This document shows positions 23,445-36,926 of a stretch of DNA of 64,000 nt, one piece after another (the stretch's first letter is position 1; every line of letters begins with the position of its first letter). Position numbers and translations under genes: made by a program. The notes below the pieces were generated by a model, which worked only from the letters and a program-made list of their open reading frames with translations, had not been told where the DNA came from and did not search any database. This DNA comes from Hespellia sp. (GTDB lineage: Bacteria > Bacillota > Clostridia > Lachnospirales > Lachnospiraceae), in contig JAQVCP010000007.1 of assembly GCA_028689735.1 (NCBI GenBank), positions 20,962-84,961 of the forward strand, written 5' to 3'.

Positions 23445-24833
23445 TTAATTGCGATCGATCAATTCGGATACAATGATATTCAATTCTTCATATTGTTCCT
23501 GAGACATTACAAAACGACTTCCTTCTCTCGTAATCAGTCCGTTATCAGCCAGCTTTTTTAGTGAGCGGTCAATGGTCTTAACACTAAGTCCTGTTGAATC
23601 CGCAAGCTCCTGTCTGGAACGTCGAAGCTCCAGCTTTCCATTTTTCTGATATTTGCTGTATGCGTCTACCAGATACAGCGTAAATCGATTGGACCCCTGT
23701 AAAAAGAGGTAAGCTCTCCCCCTCTTGCTCTGTTCCATCAGATATCTCGCGATATTCTTTGTCTCAAGCTTCAGCGCCCTAATGTCTCTTCCCATCCACT
23801 GAGAAAATGTGCTGCGCGGAATCTTGGCAATGGTACATGGAGTAATGGTCTCCAGAGTTGTCTGATACAGCTCCGTTCCCTGTACAACTTCCATCCCACC
23901 AAATGCAAAAACATCTTCAAACTGCATAAAGTCAAAGACAATTCCATAAATACGATAGTCCACTGCTTTTACCGAGCCCTTTCCTACCATATAAATCATA
24001 TTTGCAGGTTCCCCTTCCCGGATGAATACTGTATTTTTTCCATACTCCTGTACCTGAATTGCCGAAAGAAGCCAGTCCGGAGCGGACAAAAAGTATTCTT
24101 CAAACTGCTGGCGTCTCTCCTCATCAATCTCATCCAGAAACGGAAGATATGGAAGAAGCCGCTGATGCACAGCGTCACTGGTTCCCGTCCGGGTTTCTTC
24201 GTTTTCCGCTGCCTGTTTTTTTTTCTCCTCAAGAATACTTTGCATCTTGCAGATCACAATGTCTGCCGCCACCCGGTTCTTTCCACTATTTACAACAATA
24301 TCCGCCATTGCACGGGTTGGCTGCACATAGAGATTATGCATGGGCTTAACCGTTGTCAGGTATTGCTCCATAATATTCTCCATATCTCTTCCACGTTCCT
24401 TTGTATCTCTGGCAATCCGGCGAAGAATACGCTCATCTGCATCTGCATCTACAAAAATCTTGATATCAAGCATATCACGCACCCGCTCATCCACCAGAAG
24501 TAAAATCCCCTCCACTAAAATGATAGGACTTGGTTCTACACATACGGTCTTTTCTGAGCGGTTATGCTGGCTGTAATCATAGACAGGGCCATCAATCGCA
24601 TGTCCCTCCTTTAACAGCTTCAAGTGCTCCAGCAGAAGATTCGTCTCCAGAGAATCCGGGTGATCATAATTCACCTTCTGTCTCACCTCAAATGGTATAT
24701 CTTCCTGCTTCCGATAATAATTATCATAATAAATCACCGCGACCTCATCGCCAAACTGCTTTTTCAATCTCTTTGTAAATGTAGATTTCCCAGAACCGGT
24801 TCCACCGGCAATTCCAATAATTATGCTCTCCAT
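23445..24833 (-). CDS. Uridine kinase fused to a Crp/Fnr-family cNMP-binding and HTH domain
   Basis: N-half GGTGSGKST, NYDHPDS, EGIL, RRIARD, QYLTTVKPMH; C-half VFIREGE, GKGSVKA, SRQELADSTGLSVKTIDRSLKKL. Confidence 0.9.
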   Translation of the reverse strand: MESIIIGIAGGTGSGKSTFTKRLKKQFGDEVAVIYYDNYYRKQEDIPFEVRQKVNYDHPDSLETNLLLEHLKLLKEGHAIDGPVYDYSQHNRSEKTVCVEPSPIILVEGILLLVDERVRDMLDIKIFVDADADERILRRIARDTKERGRDMENIMEQYLTTVKPMHNLYVQPTRAMADIVVNSGKNRVAADIVICKMQSILEEKKKQAAENEETRTGTSDAVHQRLLPYLPFLDEIDEERRQQFEEYFLSAPDWLLSAIQVQEYGKNTVFIREGEPANMIYMVGKGSVKAVDYRIYGIVFDFMQFEDVFAFGGMEVVQGTELYQTTLETITPCTIAKIPRSTFSQWMGRDIRALKLETKNIARYLMEQSKRGRAYLFLQGSNRFTLYLVDAYSKYQKNGKLELRRSRQELADSTGLSVKTIDRSLKKLADNGLITREGSRFVMSQEQYEELNIIVSELIDRN

Positions 24834-24995: not shown

Positions 24996-25313
24996 TTATA
25001 TTCTATTATCTCTATAATTACAATATAAGCGTTCGTAGCTCTGCAATGCAATCGGCTTCCTGCAAAAATCTTTCATACCCGTTTCCTCTTCAGTGCCAGA
25101 ATAAATGCCTGATAAACAATCAATATTAAGGTGCGCATTATACACACATACCCCTGGCTCATGTTCATAGAGACATATTCGCTTTATATCGAAATCAAAG
25201 CAGAGATGCCCTGTCTTACGACGGGGCATCTGATGTAGCTTCCTTTGTTTTTTGGAGGGACACCTTATAATCCAATTCAAAACGTAAATGCAGCAAAAGC
25301 CAAATTTTTTCAA
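24996..25313 (-). CDS. Possible Cys-rich hypothetical protein
   Basis: ORF follows the acidic gene on the same strand; weak RBS, no recognisable motif. Confidence 0.3.
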   Translation of the reverse strand: MKKFGFCCIYVLNWIIRCPSKKQRKLHQMPRRKTGHLCFDFDIKRICLYEHEPGVCVYNAHLNIDCLSGIYSGTEEETGMKDFCRKPIALQSYERLYCNYRDNRI

Positions 25314-25340
25314 TTGGATTGTAATTCACTGTTCATGTCT

Positions 25341-25619
25341 TTATCTCGTTTTTATTTTCTGCCAACCTTCATCTGCATCCCTATTTTCCTCATACTCATC
25401 CAACATTTTTTCTAATTCCGAATCCACTTCACATTCTTGAAAACAATCCACTTCATCCAATTCATTCAGCATTACATCCAGCTCCGATGGTTCCCGACTA
25501 TCCAGTATCTCTCCGTCAAATTCTTCCAGATTAACCTCCGCAAATTCCTCGAATGATTCACTGGTTCCTTCTTCGCAGGCCTCGTCATAATCCACACAAA
25601 AATCAAATCCTTCATCCAT
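25341..25619 (-). CDS. Very acidic small protein
   Basis: About 36 of 92 residues D/E by hand count; basic C-terminus WQKIKTR; 14 nt after the ATPase stop. Confidence 0.7.
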   Translation of the reverse strand: MDEGFDFCVDYDEACEEGTSESFEEFAEVNLEEFDGEILDSREPSELDVMLNELDEVDCFQECEVDSELEKMLDEYEENRDADEGWQKIKTR

Positions 25620-25633
25620 AGTCCCTGTCTCCT

Positions 25634-28324
25634 TTACAATTCTTTGTTTTTTTCGGATGGGAATTCCGTTAAAATCACTCTTTTTTCTTCCTTACTTATC
25701 ATAAGATTTTTTTCCATGATCAATTTTCTCAGCACTTTAATTCTGGAACAGATTATCATTTTTTGCTTCTGTTCCGGGGAGTATACAGAAAACTCTTTTT
25801 CCATTAGAACCGGAAGATAAAACACACATTTTTTTAAATCTTTTGTATTCTTGATAGAATTTCTGTATTTTTGTATCGCAACATTTGCTAAATATTCGCA
25901 GTCTGCTCTCATATCAAACTCACAGGTCTTGGAATCCGTCATACAATATCTGCACTCCGAATAAGGTTTTAACAACATTTTATGCTGATGCCAATACACG
26001 TCATGTTCTGCCACCTCTTCATCGGAGACGCTCAAGCGAATCCCTTCTTTTTCTCGAATGTCCTCTGTATAAACAATCTGGGGAGCATCCAGTCTGCTGT
26101 AATACACAAAAGCTTCTCCGGGTTTTAGTCTGGACAGCTTTTCTAGTGCATCTTCATCCATATTTGTGCTGTCTGCAATAATGTTCTTTTCTGTGGTCTG
26201 CACCAGTCGGAAAGCAACCTTTATATCTGTGTTGGCAACGATCTCCCTGCTGACTTTTGAAGGTGACTGATCCGCAATGAGGATGCTCGTTCCGTAAGAA
26301 CGAATTTCAGCAACCATATCTTGCAGTGCCTTTACTGTTGTTCCTTTTGAGTCTGCTTTATCCTCTCCTCCGCTTCCTCCATCGAACACCACATGCGCTT
26401 CGTCAATTAAAATAGCATTTTTCAATTCTCCGTCCCCCACTTGATTGTGCTTGGTATAAACGCATATATTAATGAGCAGCAAAGCCATAATTAACGCTTT
26501 TTGTTCTGCATTATCAATGGAATTCAATTCAAGAACCGTAGGAACCGATAATAAATCTTCAATTGGTACCGTGTGGATGGAATCATATATATTACTGTTT
26601 TGTTCAATTAGATTCATCAGCCGCAAAAGACCTGCACTCTCAAGATTTCCTTTTACTTCTTTACTATATGTAGAATCTACCAGCATTTTTTTGAAGACCA
26701 TAATAAATTCGTACAGGCCAAATGCTGTGGCGTCTGAGTCTCCGGACTTGCTATAATCTTTCCACCCGTACTGGATATAACATGCCCGAATTGCCTTCAG
26801 GAAAATCATATCCAACGGTGACGGCATAGAAAAAGCTGCTTTGAATGCGCTTGCAAGACTTGGAATATACTGCTCCACCCGAATTCCTTTCGGTGGAATA
26901 AACGGATTAATCACAAACGGTGATACTGTCTGGTTTCCCGGTGTAAATATTTGAAGTTCCGGTATTACTTCCAGCATTGCCCGATATTCTGTTTTTGTCG
27001 GTTCTATGGCAAGGAATGGAATCCCTCTTTTTGCAAACTGTAACAAAAGCGATACTGCAAATGTGGTCTTTCCGGAACCGGGGGTTCCAACAATGAGCGC
27101 ATGTTTGGTAAGCGCCTTTTTCGTACATCCAATGTAAATTTTTTTAACTCCGCCCGCCTGAAGCCATCCAAACTGAATATTCTCTTTATTCACAACATCT
27201 GCTGAAAACTGTTCGACCATCTGCATTCCCTGACTACTTGCAATAGCCCCCATCGTTTTTTCATATAACGGAATCCTAAAAAACGTTGACGCTTCCTCCG
27301 CAGTCATCAGATACGGCAGTCGAAACAATTTCTGCGCCAGAGGAAAGGATGCCTGTATTGCTTTATTTCTATAAAGATACAAAAGCTTGTTATTGATGTT
27401 CCATCCATACACCGGAAGCTGTGACTTCAAATTAATTTGTTCCCCGGTAATGTTCAGACATAAGCAATCACTTGTCGCCTTTTTCATTCGTCCACCTTGA
27501 AGCAGACTGATGATTTTCGCTGCCAAGCTTGCACAGTCCGATTGGTTTCCATAGGTTAATATGTTATACAAAAACATTGGTTGTTCTCGGTGTTCTTCAT
27601 AATATGCAAAACATTTTAGTGGTTCTTCTGCCAGTAAATCTTTATATGGCTGCCCATTCACAACAGTCCCCTCTTTGATTCTTCCTAATTCTGCCGTCAC
27701 TTCATTGACAAGATATTTTTCTGCTTCTGTCCACGAAGTCGTAAAAACTTGAAAACTGACAGCACTGTGTTTCTGACAGCTTAGCGTTGCAATCAGATCA
27801 TTGAAATTATTCGGATTTTCTCCAGGAATCACATCTGCATAATAATATGGATAAAGAGAATTAGAATTAGAAATTGTTTTTTCACTCTTTACAATTGCAT
27901 AAACGCACTGACTGCACACTTTAGAAAGAAGCGCATCAAAATTTCCCTCTTTCCATCGAATTTCTTCTATCTTGCACCCATTGGAACTTAACGCAGTAAC
28001 AAAATTACTCTTTATACTAACAACCTGGCTCTCTGCCTGTTCCTTTCGGTTTCCTATCCGGCGAATGATACAATATATATGAATTCGGGAAGAGAATGTC
28101 TGATTTTCTATCTCTTCTGTTACCCATAAAAATTCCAGACAAGTACCATCTCCACAAAGCTTATGGGACTCTAATAATAAATGCTGGAATAAGACTGCAA
28201 TTGCAGAAGGAGTATTTTTTCCGCCCTCTGTCTCTTTATTTCCCGGAAATGAAGTAATTTCAACAATTTCCATCGCAAGATATTTTTCACCACTCAATTC
28301 ATATATCATTTTTCCATTCCCCAT
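25634..28324 (-). CDS. HerA/FtsK/VirB4-superfamily P-loop ATPase (DUF87-like) with long N-terminal domain and Cys-rich C-terminus
   Basis: HALIVGTPGSGKTT (Walker A), AIEPTKTEY, ILIDEAH (Walker B), EIRSYG..IADQSP, LKPGEAF; C-terminal ECRYC..C..C. Confidence 0.85.
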   Translation of the reverse strand: MGNGKMIYELSGEKYLAMEIVEITSFPGNKETEGGKNTPSAIAVLFQHLLLESHKLCGDGTCLEFLWVTEEIENQTFSSRIHIYCIIRRIGNRKEQAESQVVSIKSNFVTALSSNGCKIEEIRWKEGNFDALLSKVCSQCVYAIVKSEKTISNSNSLYPYYYADVIPGENPNNFNDLIATLSCQKHSAVSFQVFTTSWTEAEKYLVNEVTAELGRIKEGTVVNGQPYKDLLAEEPLKCFAYYEEHREQPMFLYNILTYGNQSDCASLAAKIISLLQGGRMKKATSDCLCLNITGEQINLKSQLPVYGWNINNKLLYLYRNKAIQASFPLAQKLFRLPYLMTAEEASTFFRIPLYEKTMGAIASSQGMQMVEQFSADVVNKENIQFGWLQAGGVKKIYIGCTKKALTKHALIVGTPGSGKTTFAVSLLLQFAKRGIPFLAIEPTKTEYRAMLEVIPELQIFTPGNQTVSPFVINPFIPPKGIRVEQYIPSLASAFKAAFSMPSPLDMIFLKAIRACYIQYGWKDYSKSGDSDATAFGLYEFIMVFKKMLVDSTYSKEVKGNLESAGLLRLMNLIEQNSNIYDSIHTVPIEDLLSVPTVLELNSIDNAEQKALIMALLLINICVYTKHNQVGDGELKNAILIDEAHVVFDGGSGGEDKADSKGTTVKALQDMVAEIRSYGTSILIADQSPSKVSREIVANTDIKVAFRLVQTTEKNIIADSTNMDEDALEKLSRLKPGEAFVYYSRLDAPQIVYTEDIREKEGIRLSVSDEEVAEHDVYWHQHKMLLKPYSECRYCMTDSKTCEFDMRADCEYLANVAIQKYRNSIKNTKDLKKCVFYLPVLMEKEFSVYSPEQKQKMIICSRIKVLRKLIMEKNLMISKEEKRVILTEFPSEKNKEL

Positions 28325-28381
28325 ATTGAATTTCAGTCCCTCTTAAATTTGCTTTCTGCAAATCTACTGACACTGTATTTT

Positions 28382-29632
28382 CTATAATTGAAGTAATTCT
28401 TTCTTTTTTCTATCGAATTCTTCTTGTGTAATAATTCCCATGTCCAGAAACTCCTTATATTCTTTTAAAATTTCCTTGCATGCTTTTATTTTTTCGAGTT
28501 GCTCGTTCTCCTTGGCTGACAGACTCTCCTCCTCGTGCAAGCCAGGATTCTCCTCCTCTTTCAATTGTATAATATCCGGCATCACTCCCACTAGACCTGG
28601 TGAAGGACTCTGCTGATTCTCCATCAGCCCCTGCCCCATTGTTTGATTCGCAATAGTCTCGATAGAATTTCCAAAAGCGCCTCCTACACCGAATCCCATT
28701 CCAACCCCCATCGCAGCATTGCGCAGGTCGCTTCCACTTCCTTCGTTTTCTGCTATTTTTTCCATTACATCAAACCCTCTTGACTGCTGATAAGAAAATC
28801 CCAGTTGCTGCTGTTCATACTTCTTCACATCTACATCCCACTGCTTTTTCTGAACCTCACCACTATATCCAACCAATCCTACATTTTTCCTGATTTCCGC
28901 TTCTTGCAAATCGAGTTCTCCCTGGGTCGTTAATGTCACCTTTCTGGCTCTTTGTTTGTTAATGGTCTGATACACCAAATCATTTTCTGGACGCATAATC
29001 TCCTCTACCCAGAATTTCTCAAGTGTAATTCCATAATCTGACATTTCTTCTACGATTTTCTGCTTTAGAAATACTGCAATCTCCGGCAAATCGTTTTCCA
29101 CATCAAAAATAGAGCACTCCCGTTGTTTTAAAATTCGGGGAAGCAGTGTTTTGATGTGCATCGTAATCGCTGACTTAAAATAGGTCTGGATATGGGAATG
29201 ATCAAGTACAACTTCTGTTCCCACTAATTTCATCAGTGCCTTACGTGAATCGTCCAGGCGAATGCTCATCTCCCCGTGAGCACCAATTTTAAACTGATAA
29301 TTGTTTGTCTCCTTATCTTTGTAAGCAATGTCACCAACACCCCAAGGAATTGCCATCTGTTCTGTTTTATTGATAAAATAGACTTCACAATGAAACGGCG
29401 ATTCACCACCAAACGGGAGATTGACGATTTTATTTAACAAAGGGATGTTTCCCGAATGCAATGTATGATTTCCGGGGCCAAACACATCTAATGCCTGACC
29501 GTGATAGTAGAACACCGCCTCCTGAGACTCATGTACCTGTAATTGAGATAAGGTACTGAAATCCTCATGGGGATATTTCCAAATCAATGTTTGATTATCC
29601 CCTTCATATTTAATCACATCGATAATAGCCAT
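28382..29632 (-). CDS. SPFH (Band 7, YdjI-like) protein with C-terminal SHOCT domain
   Basis: LIWKYPHEDF...LQVHESQEAVF...FGPG.HTL...PFGGESPFHCEVYFIN; C-terminal LDMGIITQEEFDRKKKELL. Confidence 0.85.
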   Translation of the reverse strand: MAIIDVIKYEGDNQTLIWKYPHEDFSTLSQLQVHESQEAVFYYHGQALDVFGPGNHTLHSGNIPLLNKIVNLPFGGESPFHCEVYFINKTEQMAIPWGVGDIAYKDKETNNYQFKIGAHGEMSIRLDDSRKALMKLVGTEVVLDHSHIQTYFKSAITMHIKTLLPRILKQRECSIFDVENDLPEIAVFLKQKIVEEMSDYGITLEKFWVEEIMRPENDLVYQTINKQRARKVTLTTQGELDLQEAEIRKNVGLVGYSGEVQKKQWDVDVKKYEQQQLGFSYQQSRGFDVMEKIAENEGSGSDLRNAAMGVGMGFGVGGAFGNSIETIANQTMGQGLMENQQSPSPGLVGVMPDIIQLKEEENPGLHEEESLSAKENEQLEKIKACKEILKEYKEFLDMGIITQEEFDRKKKELLQL

Positions 29633-29690
29633 ATATAAATCTCCTTTTTAATCACCGGTCCGAAGCTCCACAACCTTCTATGCTCAAGTA

Positions 29691-32234
29691 TTATACCCAT
29701 AAACTTTGCGTTATCAATTCTTTTTTCGTGCGTTCTCCATCCGGACTCCAACAAGAACAGCGGCTAAGTGGAATTTTACGTCCATCCAGGAACAAAAATT
29801 GACGAGCTGGTTTCAATCCTAATTGAATTAAGTATCTCGCACTCTCTATGTCACCGCAATTCATAGCAAGAAAGAGAATTGGATATCTGTCTCTTACAAT
29901 TTTTCCAAGTAATGATGTATTATTGCTCACGCGGACTGATGCGCACTGTGACAAATCCGCACCATTTTTCACCAAAAGTTCAATGATATTCTTTCTAGTT
30001 TTCGGTGGATTGGTCTCCCGAAAAGCGCGGCTTGCATAGCACACAATAGGCGTTTCCCAGCGTTCCCCCTCGGGATTGTAATACTCTAGACAACCATTGA
30101 CATCTAACCCCTGATTGATCAAAAATTGTGTGAGCCTCTCACTTCCCCCCGTAATCACATCTACGATTAATGGATACCTGTCACATCTACCATCACGTAT
30201 ATTTTCTCTCGCATAATGGATATCAGCACCGGAGTGGACCAGTAATTCAAAGATATCTTCGTGGGCACTATATGCGGCTACACTGAGTGGTGCCCACTCA
30301 TATTTATGGTTATTTGCCTCTGAGTAGTGTCGTACATAGTTTACATTTGCTCCCGCTTCAATCAATACTTTTGCTGCGATGTAATTATTATCAAGGACTG
30401 CCCAGAATAACTCCGTCGCTCCGCTTCTGTCATCGTCCACACGTGCACCGTATGAGAGCAGCACTCTCATAGCCCTTTCCAGATCTACTTTATTATGTCT
30501 CTGACACACTGTCAGAATCGACTCAGATGTCGCTGCTCCTTTCGCAGTATGGTAATGCACCATCTCATTGGCATCTGCACCTTTTTCTAAAATCATTTTT
30601 ATGATTTCACCATTTGAAAAACTAGCTGCATCCGAAAGAATAGACACATGGTCCTCCCATTGCTTTTCAACGCCTTCAGTTCTTGCAATATCTATTCTTG
30701 CGTGATTTTCCAGTAAGAGAGATACAATTTCCCGGTTATTGTGCTGAACCGCTGACGAAAGGGCAGTTGTGGTATAGTACCGCTCTTTGGACTGTCGCTT
30801 TGCAGAAACTGCATTCACATCCGCGCCATTTTTCAGAAGCATTTCTACCATTTCTTTTGAGGCATCAGCTTCAACTGCCTTAATCAGTGCCTTTGATGAA
30901 TCCATCCCACAATTAACCAGCCGCTTAGTTCCTGTTACATCATTACATTGAACCAACGATTCAACCAGAGTAATGTTGTTTACATCTACAGGATACTTTG
31001 CAACGATGTATTCACAACGAGAAATGTCCTTAATTTCTGCGAAAATCCCCAGTATTTTCACTGCATTATTTCCAGAGATAATCTTCTTTTCAATCTCAGG
31101 CATTTCTTTCGGAAGGTACTCTTTTAGTTTTGAGAAATATAGATTCTTTTCATTCCTATCAGTGCATAAAAGAAGCAGTCCCATATATGCATAGGGATGA
31201 TTGATATTCTCTTGCAGTAGTTCACGAAATATCTTCTCGGCTGATTGTGTTTTATTCAAATCATAATCCATAAAGCCCAGTTGGATTTTATCTTCATGAT
31301 TCGCTTTTTTCTCCTTTTCTTCCTGATTTGCTTCTTCCTTTCGTACAATCACTTTGCTGAGTCCATGCAGTAAATCCTGTGTAAAACCCAGTTTTCCAAT
31401 ATCAAAGGACTGAAGAGGTATGAGACAATCCGGCATATCATATGGATCCATATCTTTGATACAGGGAATCAATTTTTTTGTACGGTCTTTCTTCATCATA
31501 GAATAGAACCTGCTCCATTCATTCTTCACCCACACTGACGATAGATTCTCTGCAGATGTTCCAACTACAAGCATAACCTTTGCAGAACTCAGTGCCGCAA
31601 AAATGTAAGGTTCATATTCTGTTCCAGCTTTGTCTTCCAGTGTGATTCTGGAAAAAAACACTTTATATCCACCCTCTACTAATGAGGAATAGATGTCTTG
31701 TGCACAGACACTGTCTTTTGTCCGGTTTCCAAATTCATCACTTTCTTTGTAGCAGATAAAAATATCATAAGCTTCCTCATCCTTTGATATAGATAAGATT
31801 CCTTTTTGTACTTCCACGATTTTTGCAGCTTCCCTGATATACTGTCTTCGTGAAATCTCATCGGAGTTCTCCAGTGCTGCCTGATAATCAATGTCCTCGC
31901 CAAAGCTATCATAACTTGCTCTGTGACAAGTTGGATACCATTCATATGTATTGGGATCTTCCACATAATCGATTCCATATCGGCATAAAGCACTGCACCA
32001 GTGCGCTTCCGCATCTGTGTCATCTTCATTTAATATGCGTTCGTATGCCAATGCCGCTTTATCAAACTCTCCTTTTTTCCGAAAAAAATTTCCTCGATTA
32101 AATGCTGCAAGTCGCTGCTCATCATCGATGCGTGGAATCGTCATTGTACTACCACAATAATTGCAGGTACCCAATCTCTGTTCCAAAGCAATTTCCATAT
32201 CTCCGCCACAATATTTACATTTTATCAGTGCCAT
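29691..32234 (-). CDS. Zn-ribbon + TPR + TIR domain + ankyrin-repeat protein
   Basis: CKYCGG...CNYCGS; GEFDKAALAYERIL; TIR YDIFICYKE...FFSRITLEDK...WVKNEWSRF; about 9 ankyrin repeats (LLKNGADVNA, LIEAGANVNY etc.); RBS GGGAGG before ATG 32234. Confidence 0.9.
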   Translation of the reverse strand: MALIKCKYCGGDMEIALEQRLGTCNYCGSTMTIPRIDDEQRLAAFNRGNFFRKKGEFDKAALAYERILNEDDTDAEAHWCSALCRYGIDYVEDPNTYEWYPTCHRASYDSFGEDIDYQAALENSDEISRRQYIREAAKIVEVQKGILSISKDEEAYDIFICYKESDEFGNRTKDSVCAQDIYSSLVEGGYKVFFSRITLEDKAGTEYEPYIFAALSSAKVMLVVGTSAENLSSVWVKNEWSRFYSMMKKDRTKKLIPCIKDMDPYDMPDCLIPLQSFDIGKLGFTQDLLHGLSKVIVRKEEANQEEKEKKANHEDKIQLGFMDYDLNKTQSAEKIFRELLQENINHPYAYMGLLLLCTDRNEKNLYFSKLKEYLPKEMPEIEKKIISGNNAVKILGIFAEIKDISRCEYIVAKYPVDVNNITLVESLVQCNDVTGTKRLVNCGMDSSKALIKAVEADASKEMVEMLLKNGADVNAVSAKRQSKERYYTTTALSSAVQHNNREIVSLLLENHARIDIARTEGVEKQWEDHVSILSDAASFSNGEIIKMILEKGADANEMVHYHTAKGAATSESILTVCQRHNKVDLERAMRVLLSYGARVDDDRSGATELFWAVLDNNYIAAKVLIEAGANVNYVRHYSEANNHKYEWAPLSVAAYSAHEDIFELLVHSGADIHYARENIRDGRCDRYPLIVDVITGGSERLTQFLINQGLDVNGCLEYYNPEGERWETPIVCYASRAFRETNPPKTRKNIIELLVKNGADLSQCASVRVSNNTSLLGKIVRDRYPILFLAMNCGDIESARYLIQLGLKPARQFLFLDGRKIPLSRCSCWSPDGERTKKELITQSLWV

Positions 32235-32317
32235 ATCTATAACCTCCCATTGAACAAAATCACTGCGCGATGAATTGCCAAGACCGTAGCGCAATTTTTG
32301 TTTCCTCAATAATTAGA

Positions 32318-32402: not shown

Positions 32403-32459
32403 AAAAAGAATACCATCTAACATCCTTTCTGGCAAGCGATTTTATGCAGCCAACTTCCC

Positions 32460-35027: not shown

Positions 35028-36926
35028 CTATTCCTTTCCAGCAAGCACTGCCATAACACCGATTTTACGGATCATACCAAGTGCAATCATTGTTCCGATT
35101 CCATAACACAGCAAAAACAGCAGAGACATTTTTGTAAGTACCCACACATTTCCAAATCCCATCACAAGATTGATCCCCATCCCTAGCACACACCCGGCTA
35201 CGGCCAGTAACATGTGTTCCATGAAAATCTGTCCGGTTATGATGTGATTGCCTGTTCCGAGGCTCTTCATGATTGCAAGCTCCAGCCTTCTGCTTTGCAG
35301 CAGTAAATAGGAAATCATGTACCCCATCAGCAGAATCAGTGCGTAGAGTACCGGATAAAATCCAATAAGAAAATCAATACTTTTCCGGAGTGCCCCGGCT
35401 GTATTGATATAATCTGTGTCATCGAGAACAAGGGTGTACCCTTTGTAGGTTGACATTGCACTTCCCGAGACTTCCGTGAATCCTGCTTTTTTCATCTGAC
35501 CGACAAAGGAGTTCAGCGTATCCGGTTTTGCCAGGCTAAAAGAAAAACTGGATGCCTGGTAGGGTACTGCCGCTTCCTGAAACCATGTTTTCACTTCATC
35601 CAGAGAGCAAACCACATCGGTCGTGGTAAATGCAGCACTTCCCACAATCCTCAGCGTCACTGTTTTCAGTGGCTTAAGATTCAGCGTGTATGCCTGAATA
35701 TCTGCTGCATCATAGTAACTGATCTGGAAGGAAAGTTCATCCCCGAGACGAACCTGATATTTTTCCAGAAGCTTCTCATCCACCACACAGACATTTTCTT
35801 CCTGCATAAACTTCACATGATCCATTCCATCCATCCAGCTGTAATTTCCGTTTGTCTGACTTTGAAGCACCTCCAACTGATTCACACCTGTGACAGTCCG
35901 GTGCCTGCCCTCTGTATCATTTTCTGCCACACCGTCCAGATTGACGGTCTCTTTATACCATCCGATATAGGGAGACTTGCGAATGACCTCGCTCATCTCA
36001 TCTGAAATCAATAGTCCTTCACTGAGAGATCCATTGGAATTTCTTACTTCTCCTGTAATCCGGTAAACATCGGACAAATGCTCCAGTTGTTCCTTGTGGC
36101 TGTCTACATTCCCCATATAGATTCCCACGAAACAAACCACCATGCAGCAAACTGCAATGGCGAGAGCACTCTTTCCCCTCTGCCGATTGATATTGCGTCC
36201 AATCTCGTAGAACATCTGGAGCAGACGCTTTCTTCTGCGGGGAATCTTGGCATCGCTGGCATTTTCCGGATGGAGCATGGTGCAGAGAATCACAGTCCCC
36301 GGTGTATGCTCTTTTTTCTGCCGTACCTTCGCTGCACGCACTTCGTAGAGGGTTCCCTCCACACTGATCTGCATTGGTTTTGTATGCTTTACACGCGTTA
36401 TGGAAATCCCATTCTCTTCTGCATAATTCTGCAGCTCTCTCCACATTTCTTCCTCTTTATATATATTGCAATGAACATAGACAGAAAATTGTTTCTTCTC
36501 AGATGCTTCCGCTACTTGTCTGTAATCGTTGTAAATTTGGGCGAAACCACCCTCACTGTTTTGCAGGTATTCCATTTCATTTAGATAACTTTCTACGGAA
36601 ATGTCTTCGGACCGCTGTTTTCCTATCTTATCGCATATTTCCATGGCTGCCCGAAGCTGCCTTTGCTGGCGGCTCAGCATCTCCTTCTGCACCAGAAGTG
36701 TCTCGGACAGTTCCGCCTCACCATGCAGGATTCTTCCAATCTCTTCAATCGGCATATCCAGCATCCGCAGCATCTTGATCAGTTTCAGCTGTTCCACATC
36801 CTTCTCCGAATAATCGCGGTAACTGTTTTCTGCCTCCCGGATGGGCGCAATCAGATTCATCCGCTCATAATACCGGATGTTCTGTCTGGTCAGCCCAGTC
36901 AGCTCTTCCACTTGCTTTGTATTCAC
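35028..36926 (-). CDS. MerR-family HTH regulator fused to an FtsX-like ABC permease
   Basis: MNTKQVEELTGLTRQNIRYYE...NSYRDYS; later NINRQRGKSALAI...RRLELAIMKSLG with terminal TM segments; GTG start behind GGAGG. Confidence 0.85.
   Translation of the reverse strand: MNTKQVEELTGLTRQNIRYYERMNLIAPIREAENSYRDYSEKDVEQLKLIKMLRMLDMPIEEIGRILHGEAELSETLLVQKEMLSRQQRQLRAAMEICDKIGKQRSEDISVESYLNEMEYLQNSEGGFAQIYNDYRQVAEASEKKQFSVYVHCNIYKEEEMWRELQNYAEENGISITRVKHTKPMQISVEGTLYEVRAAKVRQKKEHTPGTVILCTMLHPENASDAKIPRRRKRLLQMFYEIGRNINRQRGKSALAIAVCCMVVCFVGIYMGNVDSHKEQLEHLSDVYRITGEVRNSNGSLSEGLLISDEMSEVIRKSPYIGWYKETVNLDGVAENDTEGRHRTVTGVNQLEVLQSQTNGNYSWMDGMDHVKFMQEENVCVVDEKLLEKYQVRLGDELSFQISYYDAADIQAYTLNLKPLKTVTLRIVGSAAFTTTDVVCSLDEVKTWFQEAAVPYQASSFSFSLAKPDTLNSFVGQMKKAGFTEVSGSAMSTYKGYTLVLDDTDYINTAGALRKSIDFLIGFYPVLYALILLMGYMISYLLLQSRRLELAIMKSLGTGNHIITGQIFMEHMLLAVAGCVLGMGINLVMGFGNVWVLTKMSLLFLLCYGIGTMIALGMIRKIGVMAVLAGKE

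What the first reader, a model, noticed from the sequence alone, without database searches (positions are those of the whole stretch)
24996..32234. Candidate novel defence/conflict operon: TIR-ankyrin sensor + SPFH-SHOCT scaffold + HerA/VirB4-type ATPase + acidic protein
Seen: four or five co-directional, closely spaced genes (gaps 58, 57 and 14 nt among the four clear genes) that appear AT-richer than their flanks, sitting between housekeeping and transport genes, with no integrase, relaxase or T4SS membrane genes. Gene 1 has CxxC..CxxC, TPR, a TIR domain retaining the WVKNEW glutamate, and about 9 ankyrin repeats with long insertions. Gene 2 is YdjI-like SPFH. Gene 3 has complete Walker A/B and R/Q motifs. 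Established: bacterial TIR domains with this Glu are NADases or signal synthases in anti-phage systems (Thoeris, TIR-STING, TIR-NLR); HerA ATPases are core parts of Sir2-HerA and HerA-DUF4297 defence; B. subtilis YdjI acts with the Zn-ribbon protein YdjG in the PspA-YdjGHI envelope-stress module. Inference: ankyrin/TPR repeats sense a phage or envelope-damage cue, SPFH assembles the complex at the membrane, and the ATPase regulates or resets TIR activity. I do not recognise this combination as a named system.
Basis: partly seen in the sequence, partly recalled or inferred. Interest (0 to 1): 0.85.

Follow-up and report, generated by a model that had tools for sequence, protein, structure and literature searches.

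The report
TIR-ankyrin, SPFH, VirB4-like ATPase operon
The four genes are real and form a stripped-down version of a widespread, horizontally moving and so far undescribed bacterial conflict system, built around a membrane scaffold protein, a secretion-type motor ATPase and a very acidic partner protein, here armed only with an NAD-cleaving TIR enzyme fused to ankyrin repeats.

Summary
Observation confirmed: four tightly spaced minus-strand genes (29691-32234, 28382-29632, 25634-28324, 25341-25619) encode Zn-ribbon/TPR/TIR/9xAnk, Band_7_1 SPFH-SHOCT, a P-loop ATPase and a 92-aa acidic protein. A fifth ORF (24996-25313) has no homologue and is probably not a gene.

The genes co-occur elsewhere. 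In 86 loci of the ATPase family, SPFH lies upstream in 39/41 well-flanked loci. A Zn-ribbon-headed protein is present in 28/29 (with TIR in 21/29). A hyper-acidic protein follows the ATPase in at least 53/69.

- The ATPase N-terminal domain folds like VirB4/TrwK, not like a HerA barrel.
- The acidic protein is the ATPase's conserved partner. Elsewhere it is the leader of swappable toxin domains (zincin, WHH, AHH, EndoNS2), which are absent here.
- The TIR protein is a swappable accessory, not the core.

The toxin-less order TIR-Ank, SPFH, ATPase, acidic protein recurs in one distant metagenome locus, so it looks like a maintained subtype.

The system is rare (1/399 genomes of the class), AT-richer than its flanks, absent from PADLOC models and from the literature I could search. 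I favour an intracellular immune or abortive role through the TIR NADase (about 0.4). A toxin-translocation machine is the main rival.

The parts
29691..32234 (-). Gene 1: 847-aa Zn-ribbon / TPR head / TIR / ankyrin protein. It belongs to the 'Zn-ribbon-headed TIR' accessory family of the system.
   Evidence: Pfam TIR_2, Ank and TPR hits. The N-terminal 340 aa are conserved in 45 relatives at 55% mean column identity. The only full-length relative is L059, at 38% identity.
32139..32234 (-). N-terminal zinc ribbon (C6, C9, C24, C27), the shared head of all accessory proteins in the system.
   Evidence: The four Cys are invariant in alignment A4. The translation was checked. 28/29 well-flanked loci carry a protein with such a head.
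31347..31772 (-). TIR domain. The catalytic-Glu motif WVKNEW lies at 31515-31532 (aa 235-240, E239).
   Evidence: W235, V236, N238, E239 and W240 are invariant. WV[KR]NEW is present in every TIR-bearing family member. The AF2 model (pLDDT 89.5) matches NADase TIRs: L7, SARM1, AbTir (TM 0.80), TIR-STING and SPARTA.
29745..30917 (-). C-terminal ankyrin repeat array (about 9 repeats with insertions). No transmembrane segment is predicted.
   Evidence: Pfam Ank_2, Ank, Ank_3 and Ank_4 hits. Repeat motifs were listed, and the TM scan was negative.
28382..29632 (-). Gene 2: 416-aa SPFH scaffold protein. Band_7_1 domain at 28943-29563, Gly-zipper-like hydrophobic segment AAMGVGMGFGVGGAFG at 28661-28717, SHOCT at 28391-28468.
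   Evidence: Pfam Band_7_1 E 2.8e-37 and SHOCT E 4.8e-8. The Gly-rich segment and the SHOCT tail are conserved across the SPFH cluster. SPFH lies upstream of the ATPase in 39/41 loci that have at least 5 kb upstream.
25634..28324 (-). Gene 3: 896-aa ATPase. VirB4-like N-terminal domain at 27245-28324. HerA/FtsK-type P-loop domain at 26054-27178, with Walker A at 27062-27088 and Walker B at 26393-26413. Cys-bearing C-terminal domain at 25637-25966.
   Evidence: Pfam DUF87. At least 1242 full-length homologues and 2343 representative clusters at E<=1e-30. The N-terminal domain model (pLDDT 87.9) hits only TrwK/VirB4: 7o43_B at E 1e-7 and 8rtd_g at 1e-6. HerA structures match at about 1e-5. The motifs sit at invariant columns.
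25341..25619 (-). Gene 4: 92-aa hyper-acidic partner of the ATPase (MDEGFDF... ...WQKIKTR). It is the toxin-less form of the acidic leader.
   Evidence: 36/92 residues are D or E. An acidic N-terminal protein with an M-D-E-G/C-F-D start follows the ATPase in at least 53/69 loci. It is 34% identical to the L059 acidic protein, including the C-terminal W.K..KTR. No toxin or s98 remnant lies downstream.
29690..29717 (-). Promoter-like site TTGATA-16-TATAAT in front of the SPFH gene. It is a possible internal promoter for SPFH, ATPase and the acidic gene.
   Evidence: Consensus scan, 11/12 matches. This is a pattern match only.
32407..32435 (-). Weaker promoter-like site (TTGCCA-17-TATTCT, TG-extended) upstream of gene 1.
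   Evidence: Consensus scan. This is a pattern match only.
24996..25313 (-). It is probably non-coding.
   Evidence: No Pfam, PADLOC or NCBIfam hit. tblastn finds nothing in the related loci or elsewhere in the genome.

Best explanation
What it is. The operon is an intact, minimal subtype of an undescribed, horizontally mobile conflict system found in anaerobic gut and sediment bacteria.

Shown:
- The family core has three parts. The first is a Band_7_1 SPFH protein with a Gly-zipper-like segment and a SHOCT tail. The second is an ATPase of about 895 aa with a VirB4-type N-terminal domain and a HerA/FtsK-type P-loop domain. The third is a hyper-acidic, probably disordered protein encoded directly after the ATPase.
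- Around this core sit interchangeable proteins that all begin with the same zinc ribbon and helical head. Most of them carry a TIR domain with an invariant catalytic-Glu motif and a variable tail.
- In most loci the acidic protein is the leader of a swappable toxin domain.
- This window has no toxin domain and no integral membrane partner. The TIR-ankyrin protein is its only enzyme-bearing effector.

Inferred mechanism:
1. The SPFH protein forms a sub-membrane lattice. By analogy with B. subtilis SamI (YdjI), which is recruited by the Zn-ribbon protein SamG, this lattice concentrates the Zn-ribbon-headed TIR-ankyrin protein and the ATPase.
2. The ankyrin array binds a cytoplasmic cue derived from an invader or from stress.
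3. Ligand-driven clustering activates the TIR NADase, as in other immune TIRs. This depletes NAD+ or produces a nucleotide signal, and growth stops (abortive or immune outcome).
4. The hexameric ATPase engages the polyanionic partner, possibly through its pore as a DNA-like ligand. It would act as the energy-dependent switch that arms, resets or disassembles the complex.
For: Gene content and motifs.

Conserved linkage in 86 loci from human gut, termite gut and sediment metagenomes:
- SPFH upstream in 39/41 well-flanked loci; an acidic protein next to the ATPase in at least 53/69.
- A Zn-ribbon-headed protein in 28/29 and a TIR protein in 21/29.

TIR domain:
- WV[KR]NEW is invariant in all TIR members.
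- The model matches enzymatically active TIRs: AbTir, SARM1, L7, SPARTA and TIR-STING.
- TIR genes occur as 1-3 paralogues with different tails (up to 4 in tandem in L064) and no interleaved immunity-like genes. This is the pattern of regulated sensor-effectors, not of exported toxins.

The minimal, toxin-less order recurs in L059, with all four proteins at 34-51% identity, so it is under selection. The genome holds no p232, toxin or s98 gene elsewhere.

Accessory, foreign character:
- The ATPase is found in 1/399 genomes of the class and in 0/60 relatives other than the window's own genome.
- GC3 is lower than in the flanks.
- Integrases are adjacent in several loci.
- Modules are shuffled: the ATPase and SPFH proteins are closest to L002/L003, while the TIR-Ank protein is closest to L059.

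The SamI/SamG recruitment precedent comes from PMC13713150 and PMC11237479.
Against: - There is no functional datum of any kind.
- The system is not seen in obvious defence islands. The flanks here and in several loci are housekeeping genes.
- None of the TIR, SPFH or acidic proteins hits a PADLOC model.
- The ATPase N-terminal domain is of the VirB4 (secretion) type.
- In the wider family the ATPase is followed by classic polymorphic-toxin domains, the zincin always with a cognate 98-aa gene. Sister ATPase families sit next to WHH toxins with what I read as SUKH-like immunity genes. This pattern is more typical of toxin trafficking than of abortive infection.
- About a quarter of loci have Zn-ribbon-headed proteins without TIR, so TIR chemistry cannot be the core function of the family.
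- No nucleotide-signal receptor domain was recognised in the core.
Confidence: 0.4

Rival explanations
1. Toxin or protein translocation machine. The VirB4-like ATPase, held in an SPFH-bounded membrane patch, recognises polyanionic disordered leaders and drives the attached toxin domains across or into the membrane for interbacterial antagonism. The Zn-ribbon-headed TIR and repeat proteins would be gating or targeting receptors. Under this reading the window copy is a variant that has lost its toxin cargo and its membrane partner, and either handles only the 92-aa acidic protein or has been repurposed.
For: - The ATPase N-terminal domain is a VirB4/TrwK fold.
- Acidic leaders with a conserved N-terminal motif carry interchangeable toxin domains: WHH, AHH, Endonuclease_NS_2, zincin, papain-like and ParB-like. 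The zincin is always followed by the 98-aa gene (30 of 30 where the next gene is visible).
- Sister ATPases lie beside a WHH toxin and what I read as SMI1/SUKH-like immunity genes.
- A 3-4-TM protein (p232) is present in 32/41 loci, and many TIR proteins are membrane-anchored, some with extracellular-type domains.
- An earlier scan note on another genome reached the same idea.
Against: - No channel-forming component was identified.
- The window and L059 have no integral membrane protein and no toxin, yet all four genes are conserved.
- The WHH-type toxins have no adjacent immunity gene.
- TIR paralogue arrays lack immunity genes.
- The earlier bold secretion reading was later priced low by the scan's own check (unverified).
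Confidence: 0.25
2. Envelope-stress or membrane-remodelling module related to PspA-SamGHI (YdjGHI). The SPFH scaffold and Zn-ribbon proteins would organise membrane repair or signalling, with the ATPase as a remodelling motor. This would be a physiological role, not a conflict role.
For: - The SPFH protein is of the same Band_7_1 type as YdjI/SamI and is partnered with Zn-ribbon proteins.
- HSP20 genes lie upstream in two unrelated loci, and ClpB and an HSP70-like gene in one.
- The flanks are housekeeping genes.
Against: - No PspA or TPM (YdjH-like) gene is present in any locus.
- The distribution is extremely sporadic (1/399 genomes).
- Toxins are polymorphic, a catalytic TIR is present, integrases are adjacent and modules are shuffled. 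These are hallmarks of conflict systems, not of stress housekeeping.
Confidence: 0.1
3. Decaying remnant. The window copy would be a canonical system that lost p232, the toxin domain and s98 and is no longer functional as a unit.
For: - The closest ATPase and SPFH relatives (L002, L003, L017; 57-62% identity) all carry the zincin toxin plus s98, and most carry p232.
- The 500 nt after the acidic gene are non-coding.
Against: - All four ORFs are full length with every invariant motif intact.
- The same toxin-less order is conserved in the distant L059, including the acidic protein's C-terminal motif.
- Short acidic-only partners (88-120 aa) occur in other loci too.
Confidence: 0.1
4. Fragment of a conjugative type IV secretion system or ICE (VirB4 with cargo genes).
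For: The ATPase has a VirB4-like N-terminal domain. NCBIfam gives weak hits to VirB4, TraD and Ced ATPases. Some loci lie next to Tn916-type integrase and excisionase genes.
Against: - The recurrent neighbour families in the 86 loci and in the window are SPFH, p232, Zn-ribbon-headed proteins, acidic proteins and s98. I found no VirB6, VirB8, VirD4, relaxase or pilin gene in the neighbours I annotated.
- The neighbours are conserved independently of any ICE.
- No close orthologue (at least 80% coverage) lies on any of 72,556 plasmids.
Confidence: 0.03

Closest known systems
B. subtilis PspA-SamGHI (YdjGHI) module
   Same: Both have a cytosolic Band_7_1-type SPFH protein working with Zn-ribbon-bearing partner proteins at the membrane (PMC13713150, PMC11237479). 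The SHOCT and SPFH combination is known from Psp-linked contexts.
   Different: This system has no PspA and no TPM-domain YdjH. It adds a VirB4-like ATPase, a polyacidic partner, TIR and toxins. It is sporadic and mobile, not a lineage-conserved stress operon.
Thoeris and other TIR-based immune systems (ThsB paralogues, TIR-STING, SPARTA, AbTir-type NADases)
   Same: The TIR fold has the conserved catalytic Glu. Several TIR paralogues with different sensor-like tails occur per locus, as with multiple thsB genes (the latter from my own knowledge).
   Different: There is no ThsA (SIR2/Macro-SLOG), STING, SAVED or Argonaute partner. No PADLOC TIR model is hit. The TIR sits behind a unique Zn-ribbon and helical head, and in a quarter of loci it is replaced by non-TIR proteins.
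Sir2-HerA and DUF4297-HerA defence systems
   Same: A FtsK/HerA-superfamily P-loop ATPase is encoded next to its effector. PADLOC and NCBIfam anti-phage HerA models are hit weakly (E 1e-8 to 1e-14, well below cut-off).
   Different: The N-terminal domain is VirB4-like, not a HAS barrel. PDB HerA chains match only aa 635-754, at E about 1e-5. There is no Sir2 or DUF4297. SPFH and the acidic partner are unknown in those systems.
VirB4/TrwK ATPase of type IV secretion systems
   Same: Both have a two-domain layout, and the N-terminal fold is the only significant PDB match (7o43_B at E 1e-7, 8rtd_g at 1e-6).
   Different: Sequence identity is about 9-10%. I found no other T4SS component in the annotated neighbours of the 86 loci. 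The protein has a C-terminal Cys-bearing extension, and its partner is a polyacidic protein, not VirB3 or VirB8.
Type VIIb secretion locus logic (EssC followed by variable toxin-immunity modules) and polymorphic toxin systems
   Same: A FtsK-superfamily ATPase is followed directly by variable toxins that share a leader, with small cognate genes after them. The toxin domains (WHH, AHH, EndoNS2) are those of polymorphic toxins.
   Different: There are no WXG100 or LXG domains and no EssA, EssB or EsaA. The ATPase has no TM segment. The leader is polyanionic and disordered. The window copy has no toxin at all.

Membership tests
Thoeris | ThsA-type effector (SIR2 or TM domain with a SLOG/Macro gcADPR sensor) next to the TIR gene(s) | tested here: not met
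   Pfam and PADLOC scans of all four window proteins and of the accessory proteins of related loci show no SIR2, SLOG or Macro domain.
Thoeris | ThsB-type TIR protein recognised by defence-system models | tested here: not met
   Gene 1 hits no PADLOC TIR or ThsB model at E<=0.01. Its only hit is the ankyrin model PDC-M72A. The TIR fold and catalytic Glu are present.
Sir2-HerA / DUF4297-HerA | HerA with an N-terminal HAS barrel that reaches the curated anti-phage HerA model score | tested here: not met
   NCBIfam HerA_antiphage scores 41 bits against a cut-off of 800. The N-terminal domain is a VirB4-like fold.
Sir2-HerA / DUF4297-HerA | Adjacent Sir2 or DUF4297 effector | tested here: not met
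   Neither is present in the window or in the 86 loci.
Type IV secretion / conjugation | VirB4-family ATPase | tested here: inconclusive
   The N-terminal domain is structurally VirB4-like (E 1e-7, TM 0.46). The sequence reaches only 34 bits on a VirB4 model with a 590-bit cut-off.
Type IV secretion / conjugation | Co-located VirB6, VirB8 or VirB3 membrane components, a coupling protein and a relaxase | tested here: not met
   None was found among the window flanks, the conserved neighbour clusters of the 86 loci or the Pfam-annotated contigs.
PspA-SamGHI (YdjGHI) envelope-stress module | Band_7_1-type SPFH protein with Zn-ribbon partner protein(s) | tested here: met
   Band_7_1 at E 2.8e-37. 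Zn-ribbon-headed proteins are present in 28/29 well-flanked loci.
PspA-SamGHI (YdjGHI) envelope-stress module | PspA (ESCRT-III-like) gene and TPM-domain YdjH in the operon | tested here: not met
   No PspA or TPM hit in the window operon or in the scanned representatives of the neighbour clusters.
Polymorphic toxin / T7SS-like toxin export | Shared N-terminal trafficking region with variable C-terminal toxin domains, followed by immunity genes | tested here: inconclusive
   Met for the family: acidic leader plus zincin, WHH, AHH or EndoNS2, and the zincin is always followed by s98. Not met in the window, where the 92-aa protein has only the acidic part and nothing lies downstream. The immunity function of s98 is untested.
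Polymorphic toxin / T7SS-like toxin export | Demonstrated export, or a recognisable secretion channel | not testable with these tools
   No WXG, LXG or Ess components were found. p232 (3-4 TM) is the only candidate membrane partner, and it is absent from the window.
The undescribed SPFH / VirB4-like ATPase / acidic-partner system (family defined here and in an earlier scan note) | Orthologous ATPase of about 895 aa, with Band_7_1-SHOCT SPFH upstream and a hyper-acidic M-D-E-G-F-D protein immediately downstream | tested here: met
   The window ATPase is 50-62% identical over its full length to family members. SPFH and the acidic protein are in place.

The most novel reading that the evidence does not exclude
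The family is a new kind of protein-translocating or toxin-delivering apparatus derived from the VirB4 motor. The ATPase would thread polyanionic, DNA-mimicking disordered leaders, with or without a toxin attached, at an SPFH-corralled membrane patch. The Zn-ribbon-headed TIR proteins would act as Toll-like gating receptors: some have the topology cytoplasmic TIR, TM segment, extracellular lectin-like domain. The window copy would be a cytoplasm-sensing (ankyrin) variant in which the TIR itself is the output.
Probability: 0.15. Interest if true: 0.95.

Novelty: categorically new. Interest (0 to 1): 0.72.

Why it matters
If the system is functional, it is a widespread multi-gene conflict system of gut anaerobes: at least 1242 ATPase homologues, and 2343 representative clusters for the wider ATPase superfamily. 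Its architecture matches no named defence or secretion system.

It joins three things not previously seen together:
- an SPFH/flotillin-type scaffold;
- a VirB4-type motor outside any type IV secretion system;
- a polyacidic partner or leader that carries swappable toxins.

On top of this sit TIR enzymes on a dedicated zinc-ribbon head, some with a Toll-like-receptor topology.

It offers a testable case for three questions. What do bacterial SPFH scaffolds organise? Can a DNA-pump-type ATPase handle polyanionic proteins? How are bacterial TIR enzymes wired to membrane events?

The window's four-gene form is the smallest natural version and so a convenient construct for first experiments.

Tried and rejected
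- Empty-site comparison. Same-genus genomes are too divergent (42-49% identity) and synteny breaks next to the conserved ABC operon. I could show only that the system is absent there, not a clean insertion site.
- att-like direct repeats around the operon: none convincing.
- Remnants of a toxin domain or s98 between the acidic gene and the Udk-Crp gene: none. Hits were only low-complexity acidic matches inside gene 4.
- The fifth ORF as a gene: rejected.
- Searching with the ankyrin half of gene 1 returned only generic ankyrin proteins, so the abundance of the TIR-Ank subtype could not be measured.
- s98 as a widely scattered orphan immunity gene: only 2/400 genomes, both orphan or fused copies, so uninformative.
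- Phage or plasmid carriage. No orthologue was found in IMG/VR viral contigs or in phage records. Plasmids hold only distant homologues. One, on Priestia megaterium pN447-3.1, is followed by a 1135-aa protein of acidic tandem repeats and has no SPFH.
- Conjugative T4SS remnant: rejected for lack of any other T4SS gene.
- My first genome-contig scan used a single protein and returned only 2 loci. The metagenome scan with an alignment replaced it.
- Promoter and terminator scans gave only weak pattern matches.

Full report
1. WHAT IS IN THE WINDOW

Mechanical ORF calling gives four co-directional minus-strand genes separated by 58, 57 and 14 nt: 29691-32234, 28382-29632, 25634-28324 and 25341-25619.

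- Gene 1 (847 aa from the ATG at 32234). The ORF list extends to a TTG at 32309, but the family consensus N-terminus MAxxKCKMCGG fits the ATG. Pfam finds a zinc ribbon, TPR, TIR_2 (aa 158-280) and ankyrin repeats.
- Gene 2: Band_7_1 SPFH (E 2.8e-37) plus SHOCT.
- Gene 3: DUF87/HerA central domain with Walker A GTPGSGKTT and Walker B ILIDEAH.
- Gene 4: 92 aa with 36 Asp/Glu, and no family hit.

The 105-aa TTG ORF at 24996-25313 has no family hit and no homologue anywhere, so I do not treat it as a gene.

The four genes have GC3 of 0.355-0.415, against 0.45-0.51 in the flanking Udk-Crp/nucleoside genes and the MerR-FtsX/ABC genes.

The ATPase has at least 1242 full-length homologues of about 895 aa, at 39-62% identity. 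Against one representative per 50% cluster of about 15 billion proteins, its profile finds 2343 clusters at E<=1e-30.

I fetched 86 loci: 2 genome MAGs, 4 assemblies and 80 metagenome contigs from human gut, termite gut and sediment. I then clustered all neighbouring ORFs. The recurrent order is:

- an XRE-type HTH gene;
- optionally a Zn-ribbon/TM/TPR/NPCBM protein;
- the SPFH protein;
- a 232-aa protein with 3-4 TM segments ('p232');
- one or more Zn-ribbon-headed proteins;
- the ATPase;
- an acidic-leader protein;
- a 98-aa protein ('s98');
- sometimes further Zn-ribbon-headed TIR genes in tandem.

Counting only loci with enough flanking DNA:
- SPFH is upstream in 39/41 and p232 in 32/41.
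- A protein whose first 80 residues are at least 25% Asp/Glu follows the ATPase in at least 53/69. Several of the misses are artefacts of my ORF picker.
- A Zn-ribbon-headed protein is present in 28/29, and one with TIR in 21/29.

3. THE ATPase IS VirB4-LIKE

By sequence, only the P-loop half resembles anything solved: Sulfolobus HerA and the defence HerAs, at E about 1e-5 to 1e-3. NCBIfam and PADLOC hits (CedD, HerA, mad8, VirB4, TraD) are all far below their cut-offs.

An AlphaFold2 model of residues 1-398, built on 39 sequences, reached pLDDT 87.9. Its only significant PDB matches are TrwK/VirB4 of the R388 type IV secretion system (7o43_B at E 1e-7, 8rtd_g at 1e-6). In the viral library it matches a 'type IV transporter component' and uncharacterised Bacillus phage proteins.

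So the protein has the two-domain VirB4 layout plus a Cys-bearing C-terminal extension (invariant C791, C794, C801, C859). No other T4SS gene occurs among the neighbours I annotated in the 86 loci or in the window.

4. THE ACIDIC PROTEIN IS THE ATPase'S CONSERVED PARTNER AND NORMALLY A TOXIN LEADER

The proteins after the ATPase start with variants of M-D-E-G/C-F-D. Examples are MDEGFD, MCDFDG and MSDEGFD; the window has MDEGFDF. They continue with 80-400 hyper-acidic residues.

Their C-termini fall into unrelated classes:
- an HExxH zincin (DUF6782-like; 30 proteins, all followed by s98 wherever the next gene is visible);
- a WHH/colicin-DNase nuclease (11 proteins, no small gene after);
- a Cys/His papain-like domain, my reading from its motifs only (4 proteins, each followed by a 75-aa gene);
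- Endonuclease_NS_2-like, AHH and ParB-like domains, the last two read from sequence motifs only.

Some loci have acidic-only proteins of 88-190 aa.

The window protein is such an acidic-only form. There is no remnant of a toxin or of s98 downstream, and no p232, toxin or s98 gene anywhere else in the 3.69-Mb genome.

A distant homologue of the ATPase (32% identity) on Priestia megaterium plasmid pN447-3.1 is followed by a 1135-aa protein of acidic tandem repeats and has no SPFH. More distant ATPase paralogues in related genomes sit next to DUF6782-like proteins with s98, and next to a WHH-type toxin with what I read as SMI1/SUKH-like immunity genes. The pairing of ATPase and acidic or toxin partner is therefore the deepest association.

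5. THE TIR PROTEIN IS A SWAPPABLE ACCESSORY WITH AN INTACT ACTIVE SITE

Sixty-eight non-redundant proteins share the N-terminal 330 residues of gene 1. The Zn-ribbon Cys residues are invariant. In the 45 TIR-bearing sequences aligned, so are D157, F159, Y162, K163, R171, W235, V236, N238, E239 and W240.

Pfam TIR_2 is found in 56/68, and WV[KR]NEW is present in every TIR-bearing member. The AF2 model of residues 1-340 (pLDDT 89.5) matches enzymatically active TIR domains: flax L7, SARM1, AbTir (TM 0.80, rmsd 2.9 A), TIR-STING and SPARTA TIR-APAZ.

The tails vary: TPR, DUF6273, RCC1, F5/8-type-C, Zn ribbons and ankyrin. Ankyrin occurs in only 2 of 68, the window and L059. TM segments after the TIR are predicted in 44 of 76 proteins. 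Some of these have the topology cytoplasmic TIR, single TM, then a DUF6273 or discoidin-like domain.

In about a quarter of loci the Zn-ribbon head carries no TIR. Examples are a 664-aa helical-repeat protein and BspA-type LRR proteins. TIR genes occur as arrays of up to four without interleaved small genes.

6. THE WINDOW'S FORM IS A MAINTAINED SUBTYPE

Metagenome locus L059 has the same order: TIR-Ank (38% identity over the full length, ankyrin confirmed by Pfam), SPFH (43%), ATPase (51%), then an acidic protein of about 113 aa (34%, with the same C-terminal W.K..KTR). It too has no membrane protein and no toxin.

The window's ATPase and SPFH proteins are nevertheless closest (57-62%) to canonical toxin-bearing loci (L002, L003, L017). 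Modules are therefore exchanged between lineages.

7. DISTRIBUTION

The orthologous ATPase is present in the window's own genome only. It was not found in 60 relatives or in 399 sampled genomes of the class.

It is absent from IMG/VR viral contigs and from phage records. Tyrosine-recombinase genes lie next to several loci.

Same-genus genomes conserve the neighbouring ABC operon but not the system. No att-like repeats flank it.

8. INTERPRETATION

Shown: the system is mobile, rare and modular, and it carries enzymes typical of biological conflict.

Inferred, my preferred reading (about 0.4): the four-gene form is an intracellular immune or abortive module.
- The SPFH protein would form a sub-membrane scaffold, through its Gly-zipper-like segment and SHOCT tail.
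- By analogy with SamI recruited by the Zn-ribbon protein SamG in B. subtilis (PMC13713150, PMC11237479), the scaffold would gather the Zn-ribbon-headed TIR-ankyrin protein.
- Ligand binding by the ankyrin array would cluster and activate the TIR NADase.
- The ATPase, bound to its polyanionic partner, would arm or reset the complex.

The main rival (about 0.25) is that the family is a toxin-translocating machine. The VirB4-type motor, the polymorphic-toxin repertoire behind a common leader, the cognate small genes and the membrane partners support it. The absence of any recognisable channel, and the conservation of a form with no toxin and no TM protein here and in L059, count against it for this window.

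Envelope-stress housekeeping (0.1), a decaying remnant (0.1) and a T4SS fragment (0.03) are less likely, for the reasons given in the rival-explanation entries.

9. NOVELTY

No PADLOC model matches the SPFH, p232, acidic/toxin, s98 or other accessory proteins, and NCBIfam names none of them. Seven full-text searches found no paper that combines these components.

My analysis agrees with it and adds:
- the VirB4-type N-terminal fold;
- the TIR family anatomy;
- the toxin-less TIR-ankyrin subtype.

The system fails the defining features of Thoeris, Sir2-HerA, T4SS, T7SS and Psp-SamGHI. I therefore rate it as lying outside known kinds, with its mechanism unproven.

Noticed in passing
L055:811-3489 (-), L080:18371-20863, L064:2037-4721: Some family TIR proteins have a Toll-like-receptor-style topology. 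A cytoplasmic Zn-ribbon/TPR/TIR part is followed by one or several predicted TM segments and then DUF6273 or an F5/8-type-C ('NADase_transloc') domain that would face outward.
   Followed up: partly
L011:1-6423 and L014:3237-3692: HSP20 genes lie just upstream of the system in two unrelated loci (a Firmicutes-like contig and a Spirochaetia MAG). L011 also has ClpB upstream and a 415-aa HSP70-like gene inside the operon, between the SPFH gene and p232. This may point to a link with protein unfolding or chaperoning.
   Followed up: no
L025:12694-14442: The acidic leader of the WHH-toxin protein contains three tandem copies of a motif (..TEDTD.L.SLRDAVESGRLQVDTEEL..). The motif hits the C-terminal part of the FlgM anti-sigma-28 models (Pfam E 8e-7; NCBIfam E 1.6e-5, below cut-off).
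   Followed up: no
L003:5490-6908: A PqqD-like (RiPP recognition element) gene and a radical SAM gene are inserted between the TIR gene and the ATPase gene in a Lachnospiraceae MAG locus.
   Followed up: no
L099-L104 (relatives G047, G013, G026, G023, G059): Distant paralogues of the ATPase (911-1257 aa, 25-36% identity over the P-loop half) have no SPFH. They are preceded by a partner of about 800 aa, and in one case by dynamin-like GTPase genes. They are followed by DUF6782-like proteins with s98, or by a WHH-type toxin with what I read as SMI1/SUKH-like immunity genes, and by several small Zn-ribbon proteins.
   Followed up: partly
L109 (Priestia megaterium plasmid pN447-3.1, NZ_CP064271.1:106849-113322): A 963-aa homologue of the ATPase (32% identity) is followed by a 1135-aa protein made of about 25 acidic tandem repeats (TDTDTELQDDLPQAPSEKLDDLEQKETDQL) plus a C-terminal domain of about 350 aa. 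This is a cultivable organism in which the ATPase and acidic-partner pair could be studied.
   Followed up: partly
window 23445-24833 (-): A single 462-aa ORF fuses a uridine kinase (PRK family) to a cNMP-binding/Crp-type HTH regulator, directly upstream of nucleoside catabolism genes (PNP, cytidine deaminase, phosphopentomutase-like, Bmp lipoprotein). An earlier scan note, e1-5266707, also flagged it.
   Followed up: no
window 35028-36926 (-): A MerR-type HTH is fused to a MacB/FtsX-like permease and heads a permease-ATPase-permease operon. The operon is conserved in a same-genus genome (L097). An earlier scan note, e1-5266710, also flagged it.
   Followed up: no
window 29690-29717 (-): A near-consensus sigma-70-like promoter (TTGATA-16-TATAAT) overlaps the end of the TIR-ankyrin gene, 58 nt before the SPFH start. 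It suggests that the SPFH, ATPase and acidic genes can be transcribed independently of the accessory TIR gene.
   Followed up: no
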